NCBI GenBank assembly: GCA_016290255.1
Contig: JAEETG010000113.1
Location: forward strand, 1 to 25,377
Origin: Clostridia bacterium
GTDB taxonomy: Bacteria > Bacillota > Clostridia > Christensenellales > UBA1242
Reading direction: 5' to 3'
DNA length: 25,377 nt
Below the pieces are notes generated by a model. That model was not told where the DNA came from, did not search any database, and was given only the letters and a program-made list of their open reading frames with translations. The translations under genes were made by a program, and so were the position numbers. Below are positions 1,778 through 17,550 of this stretch, in pieces (the first letter of the stretch is position 1; every line of letters begins with the position of its first letter).

Positions 1778-2371
1778 CTACTGTACAGAATTTGGAAACT
1801 CGTATACATTTTTTAAAATTGCTATTGTAAATTTCATAGCAATTTCAGCATCTTCTTTGCTCGCTATTTTACAATTATGAGTGACATCATTACCCAATTG
1901 TCTAATTTTATCAACCCATACATTATTAGTTTTTGACGGCAAACAGTTTTGTTGTAAATAGTTTACATAATCTATAAATGACTTGTTAGGCACACCTCCC
2001 TGATCTACAGCCACATGTGCCATTAAAGTTCTTAAAGTTATCACACAGCAAGTGTAGGCTCCAATACCAAAAGCGTTTCTACATTCACTGTAAAGTTGTT
2101 CTATTTCATCAGGTAAATAATTTATATTCTCAAAGTTAGAAACCATTGGCAAAACTGATGCATCTGAGAACTTATATATAACTGGGCAACCACAAAACGG
2201 ACACTGTCCCGTATAATATACAAAATTTTTTCTAGAAAATTGTTTTGTTGTATCTATACTATAATATCTGGCATATACATCCAAAGCAATTTTATTATTA
2301 CAATGTCCACAAACACAAGTTATAGCATCTTGCAATTTTGAAACATAACTTTCCATTTTTAACTTTTCCAT
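1778..2371 (-). CDS. DUF4145 (HEPN-like) protein with N-terminal zinc ribbon, 197 aa
   Basis: CGHC...CPFC zinc ribbon; GAYTCCVITLRTLM and IRQLGNDVTH resemble DUF4145. Start moved to MEKLK behind SD GAGGTG. Confidence 0.7.
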   Translation of the reverse strand: MEKLKMESYVSKLQDAITCVCGHCNNKIALDVYARYYSIDTTKQFSRKNFVYYTGQCPFCGCPVIYKFSDASVLPMVSNFENINYLPDEIEQLYSECRNAFGIGAYTCCVITLRTLMAHVAVDQGGVPNKSFIDYVNYLQQNCLPSKTNNVWVDKIRQLGNDVTHNCKIASKEDAEIAMKFTIAILKNVYEFPNSVQ

Positions 2372-2392
2372 AATATCACCTCTACCATTTAT

Positions 2393-2421
2393 ATTATAAC
2401 ACAATAAATATATTTTTTCAA
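2393..2421 (-). promoter_or_regulatory. Sigma-A-type promoter of the DUF4145 gene
   Basis: Minus strand TTGAAA-17 nt-TATAAT with TGTG extension. Confidence 0.75.
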
Positions 2422-8543: not shown

Positions 8544-8673
8544 AGCACTCCCCTTATGGTTAAAGTATAACTTTTTACGACAAAAAAGTAAAGAAAATAC
8601 GCTCAGTATTTGCATTTTTTTGTTCAATATCAAAGGTAACACAAAGTTTTAATAAAAATATGCCGCAAAATTA

Positions 8674-8702
8674 TTGACACAACAAAAAAAATCTGCTAAA
8701 AT
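8674..8702 (+). promoter_or_regulatory. Promoter of tRNA-Asn
   Basis: TTGACA-17 nt-TAAAAT with TG extension. Confidence 0.8.
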
Positions 8703-8739
8703 GAATTCATAATCCGCTTGGATTATGGACCCAACCTAT

Positions 8740-8815
8740 TCCTCAATAGCTCAGTTGGTAGAGCATCCGGCTGTTAACCGGCAGGTCGCAGGTTCAAGTC
8801 CTGCTTGAGGAGCCA
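8740..8815 (+). tRNA. tRNA-Asn (GTT), CCA encoded
   Basis: TCCTCAATAGCTCAGTTGGTAGAGCATCCGGCTGTTAACCGGCAGGTCGCAGGTTCAAGTCCTGCTTGAGGAGCCA, 76-nt cloverleaf. Confidence 0.97.
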
Positions 8816-8846
8816 ATAAAAGCCTTTTTAAAGGCTTTTTTTGTTT
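8812..8846 (+). repeat. tRNA 3' GCCA plus terminator, copy 1 of a 35-bp perfect direct repeat
   Basis: GCCAATAAAAGCCTTTTTAAAGGCTTTTTTTGTTT, identical to 9005-9039. Confidence 0.95.
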
Positions 8847-9004
8847 GCTATTTCACCTTCAAGCAGGAGCAAAACTATGTTTTGCTGTTTTGCTGAAACA
8901 AAACACTTGAACCTTTTTTGGTTCACCCTCTGTCGGGCTCCCGGCTTTGGCTAAAAACAGCCACACTGGGCTGTTTTCTTAACGCGTCTCCCCTGCTTTG
9001 CGGG
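8847..9004. other. tRNA-derived structured element with split T-arm copies and REP-like hairpins
   Basis: 8859-8868 and 8905-8914 are each 10/10 reverse complements of tRNA-Asn 8799-8808 and 8790-8799. 9-bp hairpin AAAACAGCC/GGCTGTTTT at 8954-8977. Degenerate tRNA 3' end CCTGCTTTGCGGGGCCA at 8992-9008. Confidence 0.75.
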
Positions 9005-9039
9005 GCCAATAAAAGCCTTTTTAAAGGCTTTTTTTGTTT
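9005..9039. repeat. Copy 2 of the 35-bp repeat; likely terminator for the convergent 547-aa gene
   Basis: Identical to 8812-8846; hairpin AAAAGCCTTT/AAAGGCTTTT. Confidence 0.95.
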
Positions 9040-9056
9040 TTAATAAAAAAAGAGAG

Positions 9057-10700
9057 TTACATCTCTCTTTTTTCACTTTTTGATTTATAACTTATAGCAG
9101 CCTCATCTCTTTTATCTCTAGACATTCGAATTCTTGCTTCTCTAAACTCATTTTGAATTTTTTTCATGGTTGAAAGTTCAAGCATTTCATTTGTTGTTAA
9201 ATGTGCAATAGGTTCAATAACCTGCCCTGGAACAAACCTCGAATCCTTTGTTCCAAGCAAAGTAATCCCTCCGTCATAATCATAAATATATAGACCATGT
9301 TGAGTTGAGTTTCTAAACCTTGCAACAATTGTTTTCACACGTTCTTCGTCAACCTTACCTTTATCTGTTAAAAATTTCTTTGGCAAATCTTCCAAAACAA
9401 TTGGGTCATCTTTAAATATGTTATCTAAAACATCTTTAACTATGTCATCATTGTGATCAGCAGTAAAAATTTGATATAACATATTTGAAACAATTGTTGT
9501 ACTCAACCCGGTTTCCATATTCAAAATCGCACGATTTTTATTTTCCTGATCGTTTACAAAATGCCCCCACAATTCGCCAAAACCACAATCCATATATTTT
9601 GCGCAATATGAGCAAAATTGCAACATTAAAAATTTTTCTTCAATAAGATAATCATGATTATATTCTTTTTGTTTTGCAAATTCGCCACATTGTTTGGCAT
9701 TAATGCCAAGTTTCCCATCAAATTTTTCATCTGTCTTTTCATACATTTTCATTTTTCTATGATAATTCATATGATAGTTTATGTCTGCTTTTTCCACAAC
9801 ATTTTTTGTTTCAGTTGCTTTTTGCAGTTCTTTTTTGAGGCTATTTACCGTTTTTTTGTCGCCTTTTTCTTCTGCAATTTTAATTTCTTCTTCGATTTTT
9901 AAAATTTTATCATCAAAACTTTCAATTATTGCTGAGCTATTTTCATCAAAACATTTAAGTTCAATAAAACCAATTATTGTATGAAGCAAACTGTTTGGGA
10001 TTAACATTTCATAATAACCAAAATTCTTATTTTTTGCGTCTTCCTGCGTTTTTGCATATTTACACGTCATCTCAACAAAAAAATCTGATCGCAAAATATA
10101 TCTAAGATCCATATGCTCTGGCTCATGGGAACCATTCTTATTAATAAAGTCATTGTCTTCATCATTATGAGCAATTGCATTTCTCATATCTTTGCAAAAC
10201 CCAAAAACTGTTGCGTGATTCATAAAATAATCATACGCCATTTCATTGTTTTCTTCTGTGATACCAAATTGCTCTAAAATGAATTGTGCAAAAGATATTT
10301 GTTCACCATTTATTTCAGTCCATAATAACTCACTCAGTTTTTTGTCTTTAATTTCTGGTGGCGTAAACTCAAGTTTTGTTTCAGTAAGATTGAAAAGTTC
10401 TTCTAAAATTCCACTTTCAATTAGCCTTAAATCCGAAACAAGCCATGCACGAAATTGTTTCATCTCACTTTCAGGCATACTATTAATATAGTCTTCTGCA
10501 TATTTCTGCTTTTCAGAATGAGAAAGAGTGTCAACATCTGTGATATAATCTTTTAAGTTGTTCATTATGTGACTTTTTATATAACAAGTTAAAAAGCTTT
10601 GTTCATTGTTGCCATGAAATAATCCTAGTGCAACCAAAATTCTTGCTTCCGCACTTATTATTTCTCTTGATGAAATATATCTTAAATCATTATTAGCCAT
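9057..10700 (-). CDS. Hypothetical 547-aa protein with two HEPN-type RNxxxH motifs (candidate RNase)
   Basis: MRNAIAHND (R173-H178) and FRNSTQHG (R463-H468). SD AGGTG overlaps the tmk stop codon. Confidence 0.6.
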   Translation of the reverse strand: MANNDLRYISSREIISAEARILVALGLFHGNNEQSFLTCYIKSHIMNNLKDYITDVDTLSHSEKQKYAEDYINSMPESEMKQFRAWLVSDLRLIESGILEELFNLTETKLEFTPPEIKDKKLSELLWTEINGEQISFAQFILEQFGITEENNEMAYDYFMNHATVFGFCKDMRNAIAHNDEDNDFINKNGSHEPEHMDLRYILRSDFFVEMTCKYAKTQEDAKNKNFGYYEMLIPNSLLHTIIGFIELKCFDENSSAIIESFDDKILKIEEEIKIAEEKGDKKTVNSLKKELQKATETKNVVEKADINYHMNYHRKMKMYEKTDEKFDGKLGINAKQCGEFAKQKEYNHDYLIEEKFLMLQFCSYCAKYMDCGFGELWGHFVNDQENKNRAILNMETGLSTTIVSNMLYQIFTADHNDDIVKDVLDNIFKDDPIVLEDLPKKFLTDKGKVDEERVKTIVARFRNSTQHGLYIYDYDGGITLLGTKDSRFVPGQVIEPIAHLTTNEMLELSTMKKIQNEFREARIRMSRDKRDEAAISYKSKSEKREM

Positions 10701-10709
10701 TTAAATCAC

Positions 10710-11324
10710 CTATATAATCTTTTTATTTTTTAAAACCAACACAACTTGATTTAACAAATCCTTTTCAGATTTTGTTGCGTCTAGCACAACAAAACGTTTG
10801 TCTATTTGAGCAAGAAGTTTGAAACTTTTTCTAACATTTTGGTGGTATGAAAAATCTTTGTTTTCAATTCTATCACCTTTGTCTTTTCCGCCCTTTCTCT
10901 CAAATGCAAACTGAGGGTCTATGTCCAAGAAAAAGGTCACATCTGGAACCAAACCATTGGTGGCGAAATTGGTGATATTCATCACAACTTCATCAGCAAT
11001 GTTTGCACAATATCCTTGATAGACTCTGGTGCTGTCAAAATATCTGTCGCAAATTACCACTTTCCCGTTTTTTAGAGCAGGCAAAATCACATCATGCGTT
11101 AGTTGTGCCCTGCTCGCAGAAAACAGCAAAAGTTCAGTTTGTGGTGTTAGTTCCTCTTTTGAGTATTTCACAATTTCTCTTATTTTCTCGCAAACATCAA
11201 GCCCACCCGGCTCACGAGTGGCAATGTAATCAACACCATTTTCATCAAAATAATTTGCAAGATTTTTAATTAGAGTGCTTTTTCCAGAGCCTTCTCCGCC
11301 CTCAAATGTTATAAACTTTTGCAT
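10710..11324 (-). CDS. tmk: Thymidylate kinase
   Basis: FITFEGGEGSGKST, TREPGG, ELLLFSASRAQ, VICDRYFDS, PDVTFFLD. Confidence 0.97.
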   Translation of the reverse strand: MQKFITFEGGEGSGKSTLIKNLANYFDENGVDYIATREPGGLDVCEKIREIVKYSKEELTPQTELLLFSASRAQLTHDVILPALKNGKVVICDRYFDSTRVYQGYCANIADEVVMNITNFATNGLVPDVTFFLDIDPQFAFERKGGKDKGDRIENKDFSYHQNVRKSFKLLAQIDKRFVVLDATKSEKDLLNQVVLVLKNKKII

Positions 11325-11371
11325 ATTTCCCACCTTTGGAACTCATTATAACACAAAAATATAAAAATAAA

Positions 11372-11404
11372 AACAAAAACTAGGTGGATTACCTAGTTTT
11401 TGTT
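11372..11404 (-). terminator. Terminator of the Sel1 gene
   Basis: 14-bp inverted repeat AACAAAAACTAGGT-ggatt-ACCTAGTTTTTGTT. Confidence 0.85.
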
Positions 11405-13901: not shown

Positions 13902-14345
13902 TTATTCAACTTCAACAATTCCACCATCTTTGATGGTTATTGTCATGTCATCTTTCACATATTCCAAAAATTCATCACCAAGGTTGTCAACAACTGGCAT
14001 TGAAACATCATCAAGCCAAACACTGGCAAGAATTGAACCAGCTGCAGCCAAAGAGTCGATTGGTTTTGAAAAAAGCATGCAAGCAGGTTGCCTTTTCATT
14101 GAACAAGCACAATACAAAACAAGCCCACCTGTTGTTGATCCAATTGTTTGAGGGAGGCACAAAGCCTTTCCTGCCATTTGTTTGCCAAAAAGGTCTTTGT
14201 TGTTTTGGTCGCCACAAGTTGCTTTTTTGTCGCCAAACTGAAGTGCTTTTTGAAATGATGCCAAAGTGTTTAGCCCGCCGTGGCTAACAAGTGCTTTTGC
14301 GCTCACTGTTCCAGGAGCGATAACTCTTCCTTTAAATGTTTTCAT
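13902..14345 (-). CDS. Aconitase X swivel (small) subunit, DUF126
   Basis: FKGRVIAPGTVSAKALVS, GKALCLPQTIGSTTGG, PVVD; TAATG overlap with the large subunit. Confidence 0.9.
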   Translation of the reverse strand: MKTFKGRVIAPGTVSAKALVSHGGLNTLASFQKALQFGDKKATCGDQNNKDLFGKQMAGKALCLPQTIGSTTGGLVLYCACSMKRQPACMLFSKPIDSLAAAGSILASVWLDDVSMPVVDNLGDEFLEYVKDDMTITIKDGGIVEVE

Positions 14346-15628
14346 TATGCCTTTCCTCCTTTTGTGATTTGACTTAAGATTTCATCATCGGTGTAGTATC
14401 TTGCAGTTGTGTAGGTTCTAAGTTTATTTGATGATGTGATAACAGGCATTTTGCCACATAGTGGGTTGTTCATATACATAAGTGGGCAAATTGATGAAAC
14501 AATAACTCCCATTTCTTTAAGGCGTGAGGCATATCCAGTTTTTTCAAACTCTTTCACAACGCCAGGAGATGCTGTGAACACAGTTTTGATATACACTTTC
14601 TTTCTGTTAACGCTATTTAGTGCTGTGTCTAGTTTTTTGGTCCAAGAAATTAGTTGTTCAAGTGACATATGTGGGCAACCCATGAAACAAAGTTTTGGTT
14701 TTGCGTTTGGATTTTTCCAAACAACTGGATAACTCTTTTTAACCCTTTCAAGTTCTGCATCATCAATAACATATTCTTTTGCACCCTTTTCAATAAGGTC
14801 TTTTCCAAGTTCTTTTGCCTCAGGGGTTAGTTTGTCGATGTGATAAAGTCCAACTGCTCCGTTTGATGCAGTTGCTGCACCAAAATCTTTTAGATATGAA
14901 CAGGTTTCATCATCAAGTTTTTTGCCAAGCCACTTATCAAGCCCAACAACATATGGAACATCTTCCATAACCTTCATTCCAATTGCTGAACCCAAAAGTT
15001 GTGCTTCTGGTTTTTTTGTGGTGTTAACTTTCACGACCCATTTTGCCTTTCTTCCCTCATCGGTCAAAAGTCCAAAATATGGAACATATCCAACAACAGA
15101 ACCCATGAGGTCCATAATTCCTGAGTTACGGTTGCATCTTGCGCCCAAAACTGAGTTTGCATAAACAACAGCAGAAGATTCAGACCAACTCAAAACCTCA
15201 CCCTTTTTTGGTGTGTTTCCAACTTCAGGCATGTAGGCCGTGCAAGTGAAGGCATCTTCGTTCATGAGTCCCAACTCTTTTAGTTGCTTTTCATAGAAAT
15301 CTTGCTTTGAATACATAAACTTGTTGAAAATAAGTTTTTGCAAAAAGTTTGCTGGAACATTTTTGTCTAGTGGTCTTGGGTCCACAGAAAATTGTTGGCC
15401 AGATTTTGCTCCATCTTCCAAAAGCTTATTTAACAGGTTGTAAACAGGCCCTAAAGCCTTTAGCCCAAATGCTGTTACGAGGTGGTTGTATTTTGATGTC
15501 ACTTTCACCAATTTTTTTGCACCAAATGTTTCTCCATACATAATCAGAGTTTTCAAAACTCTCTTTTTTGTGTCGCCGTGTTTTCCGTCCAGAATTTCTT
15601 GTTGTTCTTTTGTTAATTTTATTGCCAT
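14345..15628 (-). CDS. Aconitase X catalytic (large) subunit, DUF521
   Basis: LTKEQQEILDG, TCTAY, WSESSAVVYANSVLGARCNR, GCPH, SICP. Start MAIKL behind SD GGGGAGG. Confidence 0.9.
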   Translation of the reverse strand: MAIKLTKEQQEILDGKHGDTKKRVLKTLIMYGETFGAKKLVKVTSKYNHLVTAFGLKALGPVYNLLNKLLEDGAKSGQQFSVDPRPLDKNVPANFLQKLIFNKFMYSKQDFYEKQLKELGLMNEDAFTCTAYMPEVGNTPKKGEVLSWSESSAVVYANSVLGARCNRNSGIMDLMGSVVGYVPYFGLLTDEGRKAKWVVKVNTTKKPEAQLLGSAIGMKVMEDVPYVVGLDKWLGKKLDDETCSYLKDFGAATASNGAVGLYHIDKLTPEAKELGKDLIEKGAKEYVIDDAELERVKKSYPVVWKNPNAKPKLCFMGCPHMSLEQLISWTKKLDTALNSVNRKKVYIKTVFTASPGVVKEFEKTGYASRLKEMGVIVSSICPLMYMNNPLCGKMPVITSSNKLRTYTTARYYTDDEILSQITKGGKA

Positions 15629-15666
15629 GTTTTCCTCCCCTTTCTTGGCTTTTTTCATCTGATTTC

Positions 15667-16326: not shown

Positions 16327-17472
16327 TTATATCATTTTTTCAACTATTGCCCTACAACTTTTTGAAGCGGACAGTTCTTTTTTTATGTAGTCCAACCCCT
16401 TTTTGTAGTTTTGTTCTGCCTCAGCCCAATAAGCATCTGTTTTTTCTCTTTCCAGCAAGTCACTGTCTTGATTTAAGTGTTTTTCCTTAATTGAATCCAT
16501 AATGCAAAATTCTTCTTTCATGCTATTAAACAATTGTTTTGCTTTTCCATTTTGGTAAAACTCACAAACAGATTTAAAAAATTGTGAAATTTCTGTTTTA
16601 GGGTTGTTGATTTCCTCAATATCTTTTTCACTTAGTTTTATATGGCAGTTCACTTGCAAAGGGTAATCCATGATTGGTGCATCAATTCCAAATCGCTCAC
16701 ACATTCCATTATCATACATTGGGGCAATGCGTGCTGTTTTTTGCTTTTTATCATATATGATGCTAATGTTTCCAGCATGCCTATCAAATTGTTTTGTGAT
16801 TGCATCAATGATTGCCATTTGCTGAAGTTTAAACCTTGTGTCACTAGACACAGTTAAACCATTTTCTGTTGCAAACATTTGAATTCTTCTTTCACACTCA
16901 TCAATGTTCAAAGCATTTTCTGTTCTTGTTTTTTCTTTTATTTCTTCCAAATATTTTTTATTCTTTTCAATAAAGGTGTTGTCAAACGGCATCAAAAGTT
17001 TGCTTTTCATTTTGTGTTTATATAGCAAACTGTGAGCAACAACATGAAGATCTTTAAATTTGAAAAGAAATGTTATTGGGCAAGCACGAGCAAAAACAAC
17101 CATCATTTGAAAATATAACTCTTTTGGATAATCTTTCATCACCTCTTTGTCACGAATTTCACTAAGAGTTATTGCCTCTTCTTTTTCAGACAAAAAACTT
17201 TTTGACATAATCCCTCTTCTTTCATGACCTTTTTGTTCATTGATGGCATAGCCGCACTCAACACAGTCAACGCCAAGTTCTTTGCAAAGTTTGGAAACCA
17301 CAATTTCGCCAACCAATTCTCCAGTGTCTTGCTGTGCGTGTTTTGGATATTTGAAAAAATATTGCTTATGAAATAACCAATATGACGGATTATATGAAAC
17401 ATATTTTGGAATTTTAACTTTTTTAAACACATATGGCTGTTTTAAGTCAAACAATATTTCTTTCTTTTTCAT
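16327..17472 (-). CDS. HipA/CtkA-like (PI3K-like fold) protein kinase, 381 aa
   Basis: YFFKY, GELVGEIVVSKL, GIMSKSF, FDRHAGN, IAPMYDNG. Start MKKKE behind SD GGAG. Confidence 0.8.
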   Translation of the reverse strand: MKKKEILFDLKQPYVFKKVKIPKYVSYNPSYWLFHKQYFFKYPKHAQQDTGELVGEIVVSKLCKELGVDCVECGYAINEQKGHERRGIMSKSFLSEKEEAITLSEIRDKEVMKDYPKELYFQMMVVFARACPITFLFKFKDLHVVAHSLLYKHKMKSKLLMPFDNTFIEKNKKYLEEIKEKTRTENALNIDECERRIQMFATENGLTVSSDTRFKLQQMAIIDAITKQFDRHAGNISIIYDKKQKTARIAPMYDNGMCERFGIDAPIMDYPLQVNCHIKLSEKDIEEINNPKTEISQFFKSVCEFYQNGKAKQLFNSMKEEFCIMDSIKEKHLNQDSDLLEREKTDAYWAEAEQNYKKGLDYIKKELSASKSCRAIVEKMI

Positions 17473-17488
17473 CTTTCGCTCCAAAAAG

Positions 17489-17517
17489 ATTATAGCAATA
17501 AACGGCCTAAAAGTCAA
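17489..17517 (-). promoter_or_regulatory. Promoter of the kinase gene
   Basis: Minus strand TTGACT-17 nt-TATAAT with TG extension. Confidence 0.8.
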
Positions 17518-17550
17518 TATCCTTATTTTTTTCAAAAAGAAAAAACGGAA

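What the first reader, a model, noticed from the sequence alone, without database searches (positions are those of the whole stretch)
9057..10700. Compact orphan protein with two HEPN RNxxxH motifs, coupled to tmk
Seen: RNAIAH (nt 10167-10184, R173-H178) and RNSTQH (nt 9297-9314, R463-H468), about 290 aa apart in one 547-aa helical protein. Its SD overlaps the tmk stop codon, so it is probably co-transcribed with an essential gene. Known: HEPN RNases build a composite active site from two RxxxxH motifs. Most do so by homodimerising; Cas13, including compact ancestral forms, carries both in one chain, and some HEPN toxins are restrained by an RNA antitoxin. Inference: a single-chain dual-HEPN RNase with no CRISPR array and no protein antitoxin nearby, possibly a new defence or toxin family. 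It converges on a tRNA-derived structured element.
Basis: partly seen in the sequence, partly recalled or inferred. Interest (0 to 1): 0.75.

Follow-up and report, generated by a model that had tools for sequence, protein, structure and literature searches.

The report
Orphan protein with two HEPN motifs
A 547-residue protein of an uncultured rumen Clostridia bacterium carries the catalytic signature of HEPN RNA-cutting enzymes twice in one chain with no CRISPR array or antitoxin, so it is probably a rare, dispensable stand-alone RNase, though neither its fold nor its activity is shown.

Summary
ORF 9057-10700 (minus strand, 547 aa) carries RNAIAH (R173-H178) and RNSTQH (R463-H468). Its Shine-Dalgarno sequence overlaps the tmk stop codon.

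Both motifs are invariant in all five full-length relatives (about 40% identity). A 32%-identical fragment also keeps the second motif. It is the only ORF in its 0.9-Mb genome with two RNxxxH motifs.

The family is tiny: five or six sequences among about 15 billion proteins. No Pfam, NCBIfam, PADLOC, PHROGs or PDB sequence match was found.

The HEPN reading is likely but unproven:
- Each motif ends a predicted helix and is followed by a beta-hairpin and a helix.
- Language-model neighbours of both halves are pEK499_p136 (PF18736) clusters.
- The HHalign similarity vanishes when the motif is deleted.
- No fold search gave a significant hit.

The gene is dispensable and fast-evolving. It was not found in 60 related genomes, sits at three different loci, and is a pseudogene behind tmk in a sister lineage.

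The assembly has no CRISPR-like array and no partner gene is conserved. The downstream "tRNA-derived element" is a generic multi-copy tRNA-linked repeat, not a dedicated RNA partner.

Unchecked notes from this scan describe similar twin-RNxxxH orphans in other gut Firmicutes genomes.

The parts
9057..10700 (-). ORF of 547 aa (P0001), stop codon included; founder of a tiny orphan family
10167..10184 (-). First R-N-x3-H motif, RNAIAH (R173-H178). It lies in the invariant block RNxIAHNDED, at the end of predicted helix 165-180.
9297..9314 (-). Second R-N-x3-H motif, RNSTQH (R463-H468). It lies in the invariant block RxRNxxQHGLY, at the end of predicted helix 452-467 (low-confidence model).
10557..10682 (-). 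Residues 7-48, the most conserved stretch of the family (RYIPSREIISAEAR...GNNE.SFL.C..KS). Function unknown and modelled at low confidence.
9732..9944 (-). Residues 253-323: predicted two-helix coiled-coil hairpin joining the two halves. It is poorly conserved and 25-30 residues shorter in relatives.
10706..10711 (-). Shine-Dalgarno sequence AGGTGA overlapping the tmk stop codon (10710-10712)
10710..11333 (-). tmk (thymidylate kinase), immediately upstream on the same strand
   Evidence: PF02223, E 5.9e-48
11372..11404 (.). Bidirectional terminator-like hairpin between the Sel1-repeat gene and tmk. It would make tmk plus this gene a two-gene unit.
9011..9032 (.). Terminator-like hairpin just after the ORF. 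It is part of a 42-nt copy (8998-9039) of the tRNA-Asn 3' end plus terminator (8805-8846).
8937..8993 (-). Core of the downstream element (hairpin plus TTTTTAGCCAAAGCCGGGAGC). The same core follows the homolog in L002. It is a multi-copy tRNA-linked repeat in relatives without the gene, so I do not count it as a functional partner.
8740..8815 (+). tRNA-Asn (GTT), convergent with the ORF

Best explanation
The gene encodes a stand-alone, single-chain protein with two HEPN-type RNase centres.

**Shown**
- Two canonical R-N-x3-H motifs, 290 residues apart, are invariant across a small, fast-evolving family.
- Each ends a predicted helix and is followed by a beta-hairpin and a long helix.
- The halves are joined by a variable coiled-coil hairpin.
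- The gene is an accessory gene with no CRISPR array and no conserved partner gene.

**Inferred**
- Each half is a divergent HEPN domain, nearest to the pEK499_p136 type.
- The two halves pair within one chain, as Cas13's HEPN1 and HEPN2 do, or between chains. This forms a composite, metal-independent active site that cuts RNA and leaves 2',3'-cyclic phosphate ends.
- The enzyme is latent because it is co-expressed with tmk without an antitoxin. A trigger such as phage infection or stress would switch it on, possibly sensed by the highly conserved N-terminal 48 residues.
- Its role would be a toxin-like or abortive-infection-type RNase in a reduced-genome rumen Clostridia bacterium.
For: - **Motifs.** Both are present at the stated coordinates and invariant in five full-length relatives at about 40% identity. 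The second is kept in a 32%-identical fragment.
- **Rarity.** This is the only ORF of the genome with two RNxxxH; there are 8 motifs in 246,562 residues.
- **HEPN signature.** N follows R in both motifs, the typical polar residue. The motif position matches the HEPN description in PMC3710099: at the end of helix 3, running into the loop to helix 4. In the models the motifs end helix 165-180 (pLDDT about 88, falling to 67) and helix 452-467.
- **Family pattern.** PF18736 members show MRNSVAH followed by a short stretch and a last segment in the same order.
- **Language-model neighbours.** PF18736 clusters are nearest for the whole protein (0.90; 58 of 100 hits), the N half (0.90-0.91) and the C half (0.88-0.89).
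- **HHalign to a PF18736 profile.** The N half scores 33.1 (59.5% in the first run) and the C half 25.0, against a maximum of 18.1 and 18.7 in 40 column shuffles. That is at or above the 24.3 scored between two accepted HEPN families, PF18736 and Abi_2.
- **Weak fold hits.** Five of the top 30 AlphaFold-DB rows for the N domain are HEPN families: ApeA-like, Cthe_2314-like twice, pEK499_p136 and LAS1.
- **Accessory character.** The gene was not found in 60 related genomes. It lies after tmk here, after clpX in L002 and after a GDPD gene in L003. It is decayed to a pseudogene behind tmk in a sister lineage.
- **Real gene.** Strain variants are 10 synonymous to 8 non-synonymous, none in the motifs, and codon usage is native.
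Against: - **No family match.** No Pfam, NCBIfam, PADLOC, PHROGs or PDB sequence match appeared even at E 10, for the whole protein or for its halves.
- **Motif-driven similarity.** With the 8-residue motif deleted from both profiles, HHalign scores fall to 14.5 and 12.6, within the shuffle range. The profile similarity is therefore not independent of the observation.
- **No sign of duplication.** The two halves are not detectably similar to each other.
- **Weak C-terminal model.** It has pLDDT 30-50, from only five sequences.
- **No expression evidence.** One metatranscriptome contig covers only the 3' end of tmk.
- **No defence context.** There are no defence genes directly beside the gene.
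Confidence: 0.5

Rival explanations
1. It is not a HEPN enzyme. The two RNxxxH strings would be conserved structural or ligand-binding elements of a new helical fold, for example a nucleic-acid-binding or scaffold protein without nuclease activity.
For: - No significant fold or family match was found.
- HHalign similarity to PF18736 vanishes once the motif is removed.
- The halves are not alike.
Against: - Two copies of the exact R-N-x3-H form, both invariant, would arise by chance only rarely (about 0.018 expected per protein of this size).
- Both sit at a helix end before a loop, where HEPN motifs sit.
- Language-model neighbours of each half taken separately are HEPN clusters.
- HEPN families are notoriously recognisable only by this motif (PMC3710099). 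Two accepted families score no better against each other.
Confidence: 0.25
2. It is a housekeeping RNA-processing or RNA-turnover RNase of this reduced genome, co-expressed with tmk and not involved in conflict.
For: - The Shine-Dalgarno sequence overlaps the tmk stop, and terminators flank the pair.
- The tmk junction is kept in a sister lineage.
- Codon usage is native.
- All neighbours at all loci are housekeeping genes.
- No antitoxin is present.
Against: - The gene was not found in 60 related genomes, including 12 of the same genus.
- It is a pseudogene in the closest lineage that keeps the site.
- It lies at three different loci.
- It evolves much faster than its neighbours: 32-40% identity against 74% for tmk and 87% for LepA.
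Confidence: 0.12
3. It is an RNA-guided or RNA-restrained dual-HEPN effector, in the manner of Cas13an or AbiF. It would use an unrecognised non-coding RNA, for example the structured element downstream.
For: - Its size (514-576 aa) falls in the Cas13an range of 429-577 aa (PMC12165695).
- It has two HEPN motifs in one chain.
- The same roughly 57-nt core follows the gene both here and in L002, although the upstream genes differ.
Against: - There is no CRISPR-like array in the window or the assembly.
- Rfam finds no abiF motif or any RNA other than tRNAs.
- The gene starts 9 nt after tmk, so there is no upstream RNA.
- The downstream core is multi-copy beside tRNA genes in 16 of 60 relatives that lack the gene, and it is missing after the homolog in L003.
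- No sequence match to any solved Cas13 was found.
- Abi_2 proteins carry one motif per chain and score weakly or at null level.
Confidence: 0.05

Closest known systems
pEK499_p136 family of HEPN domains (Pfam PF18736; Anantharaman et al. 2013, PMC3710099; type protein WP_000528932.1 of plasmid pEK499, 166 aa)
   Same: - The motif context is the same: hydrophobic-x-x-[MF]-R-N-[AS]-x-x-H.
- An invariant Asn lies in a helix 57 residues upstream of the motif in the C half; the spacing in PF18736 is also 57.
- It gives the best HHalign score of the families tried.
- It is the nearest language-model neighbour for both halves.
   Different: - The Pfam model does not hit the protein or its halves even at E 10.
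- The similarity is motif-driven.
- The fetched members of the family are 95-183-aa proteins with one domain and one motif, whereas this protein has 547 aa and two motifs.
- The family is described as linked to restriction-modification, ART/Macro and Pgl genes. Here the neighbours are housekeeping genes.
Cas13an, compact ancestral type VI CRISPR effectors (PMC12165695)
   Same: Two HEPN motifs in one chain, a similar length (429-577 aa against 514-576 aa), and a Firmicutes-type host. Cas13 forms its site by intramolecular pairing of the two HEPN domains, which is what I infer here.
   Different: There is no CRISPR array, no cas genes and no guide-like RNA. No sequence or fold match to any solved Cas13 was found. 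The Cas13an HEPN domains group with AbiD/F, whereas this protein scores better against PF18736 than against Abi_2.
AbiD/AbiF (Abi_2, PF07751) abortive-infection RNases with an RNA antitoxin (bioRxiv 10.1101/2025.04.15.648962)
   Same: Both have an RNxxAH-type motif. Both are patchy accessory genes in Firmicutes and stand-alone toxin-like RNases without a protein antitoxin.
   Different: - Abi_2 proteins are 290-380 aa, with one canonical RNx[CI][AV]H motif per chain in 20 of the 21 extracted.
- They carry an upstream abiF RNA motif (RF03085), which is absent here.
- There is no Pfam hit.
- HHalign scores are 24.8 for the N half and 15.1 (null level) for the C half.
Swt1-like proteins, described as a 'dyad of HEPN domains' (PMC3710099, Table 1)
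   Same: They are a precedent for two HEPN domains in one chain outside CRISPR systems.
   Different: They are eukaryotic, fused to a PIN domain, and have only partly conserved motifs. No similarity was detected here.

Membership tests
HEPN superfamily | Rx4-6H motif with a polar residue (N/D/H) after the R, conserved in the family | tested here: met
   RNAIAH and RNSTQH are both invariant in 5 relatives. The second is also kept in a sixth, fragmentary relative.
HEPN superfamily | [quoted passage not shown] | tested here: inconclusive
   Both motifs end a predicted helix and are followed by a loop or beta-hairpin and a helix. A four-helix HEPN bundle was not confirmed by any fold search. The C-terminal half has pLDDT 30-50.
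HEPN superfamily | Significant profile or fold similarity to an accepted HEPN family | tested here: inconclusive
   HHalign against PF18736 scores 33.1 and 25.0, against a shuffle maximum of about 18. With the motif deleted the scores are at null level. The best AlphaFold-DB E-value is 0.29, with 5 HEPN families among 30 weak rows.
HEPN superfamily | Metal-independent RNase activity dependent on the R and H residues | not testable with these tools
   This needs biochemistry.
pEK499_p136 (PF18736) | Match to the Pfam model at or above its gathering score | tested here: not met
   No PF18736 hit at E up to 10 for the protein, its halves or its relatives. The genome search with PF18736 also found nothing in the window's own genome.
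pEK499_p136 (PF18736) | Small protein with a single HEPN domain | tested here: not met
   The fetched members are 95-183 aa with one motif. This protein has 547 aa and two motifs.
Cas13 (type VI CRISPR effector) | Two HEPN motifs in one chain | tested here: met
Cas13 (type VI CRISPR effector) | Adjacent CRISPR array supplying guide RNA | tested here: not met
   No CRISPR-like array in the window or in the 146-contig, 89%-complete assembly. No tRNA was found in the homolog loci L002 and L003, and I saw no array-like repeats in the flanking stretches I read by eye; no repeat search was run on those loci.
Cas13 (type VI CRISPR effector) | Sequence or fold similarity to known Cas13 proteins | tested here: inconclusive
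   The profile search of all PDB chains found none at E up to 10, and the fold searches list none. The models are weak, so absence is not proof.
AbiD/F (Abi_2, PF07751) | Match to the Abi_2 model | tested here: not met
   No Pfam hit. HHalign scores are 24.8 for the N half and 15.1 for the C half.
AbiD/F (Abi_2, PF07751) | Upstream abiF non-coding RNA (RF03085) | tested here: not met
   Rfam at gathering score over the window, and at E up to 1 over 8640-9060, found only tRNA. The gene starts 9 nt after tmk.
Type II/VII toxin-antitoxin pair (e.g. HepT/MntA) | Adjacent antitoxin gene conserved with the toxin | tested here: not met
   The neighbours differ at every locus: tmk, clpX plus a 77-aa ORF, GDPD. 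The small ORFs are not shared.

The most novel reading that the evidence does not exclude
This would be one branch of an undescribed class of CRISPR-independent, single-chain double-HEPN RNases of gut Firmicutes. In this reading the class was built by joining two pEK499_p136-like HEPN domains through a coiled-coil stalk. That would be an independent parallel to the fusion of two HEPN genes proposed as the origin of Cas13 (PMC12165695). The enzyme would be kept latent without any antitoxin and switched on by a trigger sensed through its conserved N-terminal segment.
Probability: 0.3. Interest if true: 0.7.

Novelty: new variant of a known kind. Interest (0 to 1): 0.5.

Why it matters
If both motifs are catalytic and pair within one chain, this would be a Cas13-sized, guide-less double-HEPN RNase. 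It would show that fusing two HEPN domains happened outside the AbiD/F-Cas13 lineage.

It would also pose a concrete question. How is a potentially lethal RNase kept silent when it is co-transcribed with an essential gene and has neither a protein nor an RNA antitoxin?

Compact single-chain HEPN RNases are also of interest as RNA tools.

If the motifs are not catalytic, the family is still a clean example of how far motif-only HEPN calls can mislead.

Tried and rejected
- **Family libraries.** Pfam, NCBIfam, PADLOC and PHROGs scans of the protein, its halves and its relatives gave only chance-level rows.
- **PDB by sequence.** The profile search found nothing.
- **More relatives.** The following searches added none:
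  - an exhaustive phmmer search of 1.84 billion representatives;
  - a profile search of 5.8 billion proteins;
  - scans of genome, metagenome and viral contigs.
- **Whole-protein fold searches.** They were dominated by the coiled-coil hairpin at residues 253-323.
- **Internal duplication.** HHalign of the N half against the C half is not significant.
- **Dedicated RNA partner.** I considered the downstream element because the same core follows the homolog in L002. I rejected it because the core is multi-copy beside tRNA genes in relatives lacking the gene.
- **Insertion footprint.** Synteny around tmk in four same-genus genomes shared only tmk.
- **Expression.** One RNA run holds only a 217-nt contig over the 3' end of tmk (10698-10914), which does not bridge the junction. 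All runs were contigs, so no level or transcript ends can be read.
- **Defence island.** Only the HipA-like kinase 6 kb away hits PADLOC; the direct neighbours do not.
- **Long PF18736 proteins.** I could not fetch the 563-575-aa PF18736-bearing clusters that the Atlas search lists, so I do not know whether they also carry two motifs.

Full report
**Observation**

The window has an ORF at 9057..10700 on the minus strand (547 aa). RNAIAH is residues 173-178 (nt 10167-10184) and RNSTQH is residues 463-468 (nt 9297-9314).

The upstream gene is thymidylate kinase (PF02223, E 5.9e-48). Its stop TAG (10710-10712) overlaps AGGTGA (10706-10711), which lies 5 nt before the ATG. Terminator-like hairpins stand before tmk (11372-11404) and after the ORF (9011-9032), so the two genes look like one unit.

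The motif pair is unlikely to be chance. The 699 ORFs of at least 150 aa in the 0.9-Mb assembly hold 8 RNxxxH motifs in 246,562 residues, and only this ORF has two.

**Family**

An exhaustive phmmer search of 1.84 billion representatives and two word-indexed searches of 5.8 billion proteins found the following relatives:
- two 97%-identical strain variants;
- three full-length relatives at 39-44% identity (514-576 aa);
- two fragments.

Scans of genome, metagenome and viral contigs added nothing.

In the five-sequence alignment both motifs lie in invariant blocks: GFCxxxRNxIAHNDED and RxRNxxQHGLY. The other strongly conserved blocks are residues 7-48 and NMLYQxFTAD. A 173-aa fragment only 32% identical keeps RIRNATQHGLY.

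**Is it HEPN?**

No family library or PDB sequence search matched.

*Models.* AlphaFold with five sequences gave pLDDT 59.8 for the whole chain. The N-terminal half scored 70-90, the coiled-coil hairpin at 253-323 was fair, and the C-terminal half scored 30-50. The N-terminal 258 residues alone gave 70.6. In both models each motif ends a helix (165-180 and 452-467) and is followed by a loop, two beta-strands and a long helix. PMC3710099 places the Rx4-6H motif at the end of helix 3 running into the loop to helix 4, with N, D or H after the R. Both motifs fit that description.

*Fold searches.* They were not decisive.
- The whole model matched only coiled coils.
- The N domain gave no PDB or AlphaFold-DB hit better than E 0.29.
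- Five of the 30 weak AlphaFold-DB rows are HEPN families.

*Language-model neighbours.* PF18736 (pEK499_p136 HEPN) clusters were nearest for the whole protein (0.90; 58 of 100 hits), the N half (0.90-0.91) and the C half (0.88-0.89). These are leads, not tests.

*Profile comparison.* I fetched PF18736 members and compared profiles with HHalign.

| Comparison | Score | Note |
|---|---|---|
| N half vs PF18736 | 33.1 | 59.5% probability, P 9e-5 in the first run; motifs aligned |
| C half vs PF18736 | 25.0 | 9% probability, P 0.0036; motif aligned, NMLYQ on NCLLG |
| Either half vs column-shuffled PF18736 | up to 18.1 (N) and 18.7 (C) | 40 shuffles |
| N half vs PF18736, motif deleted | 14.5 | null level |
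| C half vs PF18736, motif deleted | 12.6 | null level |
| PF18736 vs Abi_2 | 24.3 | two accepted HEPN families |
| N half vs Abi_2 | 24.8 | |
| C half vs Abi_2 | 15.1 | null level |

Deleting the 8-residue motif from both profiles removes the signal, so the profile similarity carries no information beyond the motif. Two accepted HEPN families score no better against each other, so motif-only similarity is normal between HEPN families. The two halves are not detectably alike.

My reading is that HEPN is likely but not shown. The protein is not a member of PF18736 by that family's own criteria.

**Distribution and context**

The nearest named relatives of a neighbouring helicase are uncultured Clostridia and Christensenella-like MAGs from rumen and gut. 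The runs that hold the stretch are ruminant gut metagenomes.

The gene was not found in 60 related genomes: 12 of the same genus, 24 of the same family and 24 of the same order.

In related contigs it lies at other sites:
- after tig-clpP-clpX in L002;
- after rSAM-lepA-GDPD in L003, where LepA is 87% identical to this genome's.

In this genome a different gene follows clpX.

A sister lineage (tmk 74% identical, same Sel1-tmk order) has the gene at the same junction, but decayed:
- a 48-codon N-terminal ORF ends in a stop;
- further stops follow;
- residues of about 95-345 are deleted;
- a 173-codon C-terminal ORF remains.

The gene is therefore dispensable. It also evolves much faster than its neighbours.

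Strain variants are 10 synonymous to 8 non-synonymous, none in the motifs. Codon usage is native, and GC is 30.4% against 34.1% for the genome.

No small ORF is shared among the loci. The assembly has no CRISPR-like array, and Rfam finds only tRNAs.

**The downstream element**

A roughly 57-nt core (a hairpin plus TTTTTAGCCAAAGCCGGGAGC on the gene's strand) follows the gene here and in L002. That looked like a partner RNA.

It is not specific to the gene. The core occurs in 16 of 60 relatives that lack the gene, often in 3-5 copies, and lies 100-300 nt from tRNA genes of many identities. It is missing after the L003 homolog. It is a lineage-wide tRNA-linked repeat. What it does show is that the gene lies next to tRNA loci in two of three contexts.

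**Expression**

Only assembled contigs were available. A DNA contig bridges the tmk junction in another sample. The one RNA run has a 217-nt contig over the 3' end of tmk only. There is no usable evidence either way.

**Mechanism**

*Shown:* two invariant canonical motifs at helix ends, a variable coiled-coil linker, a very conserved N-terminal segment, accessory status, and no partner.

*Inferred:* two divergent HEPN domains pair within the chain, as in Cas13 (PMC12165695), or across a dimer, to form a composite metal-independent RNase site. The enzyme is latent until triggered, since it is co-expressed with tmk without an antitoxin. Its role is toxin-like or abortive-infection-like.

The rivals are a non-catalytic helical protein, a housekeeping RNase, and an RNA-guided or RNA-restrained effector.

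**Comparison and novelty**

- *pEK499_p136* is the nearest known family, but its type protein is 166 aa with one motif.
- *Abi_2* proteins have a single canonical RNx[CI][AV]H motif in 20 of the 21 I extracted, and they are reported to carry an upstream RNA.
- *Cas13an* has the same size and two motifs but always comes with a CRISPR array.

Two HEPN domains in one chain are known from Cas13 and Swt1. I therefore rate this a new variant of a known kind.

Notes from this scan, unchecked by me, list five further orphan 495-639-aa twin-RNxxxH proteins from uncultured gut Clostridia and Bacilli, with the same nearest families. If they are related, they point to a broader, fast-evolving class.

Noticed in passing
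L132:4679-5522 (Logan contig of run ERR5671698): In a sister lineage (tmk 74% identical, same Sel1-tmk order) the homolog behind tmk is a pseudogene. A 48-codon N-terminal ORF ends in a stop, more stops follow, residues of about 95-345 are deleted, and a 173-codon C-terminal ORF still carries RIRNATQHGLY.
   Followed up: yes
window 8937-8993 (core), within 8847-9010: A roughly 57-nt core (hairpin plus GCTCCCGGCTTTGGCTAAAAAC on the plus strand) is a multi-copy repeat. It lies 100-300 nt from tRNA genes of many identities in 16 of 60 related genomes, sometimes as pairs about 145-260 nt apart. It also follows the homolog in L002. One strain (run X1) has an 18-nt insertion behind 8936. Its function is unknown; it may be a shared terminator module or a small RNA.
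   Followed up: partly
window 8805-8846 and 8998-9039: A 42-nt direct repeat (95% identical) made of the tRNA-Asn 3' end plus its terminator, flanking 151 nt. It could be a remnant of integration at the tRNA or a duplication of the terminator module.
   Followed up: no
window 1778-2404 (-): A 208-aa protein with an N-terminal CxxC...CxxC zinc ribbon and a DUF4145 domain (PF13643, E 2.2e-9), a family classed as HEPN in PMC3710099. It is a second HEPN-type gene in the same window.
   Followed up: partly
window 16327-17535 (-): The stand-alone HipA-like kinase matches the candidate defence family PDC-M03A of PADLOC (E 1.3e-16).
   Followed up: no
[not shown]
   Followed up: partly
window 13902-15658 (-): A large and small subunit pair of aconitase X (PF04412 and PF01989) in a 0.9-Mb reduced genome.
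   Followed up: no
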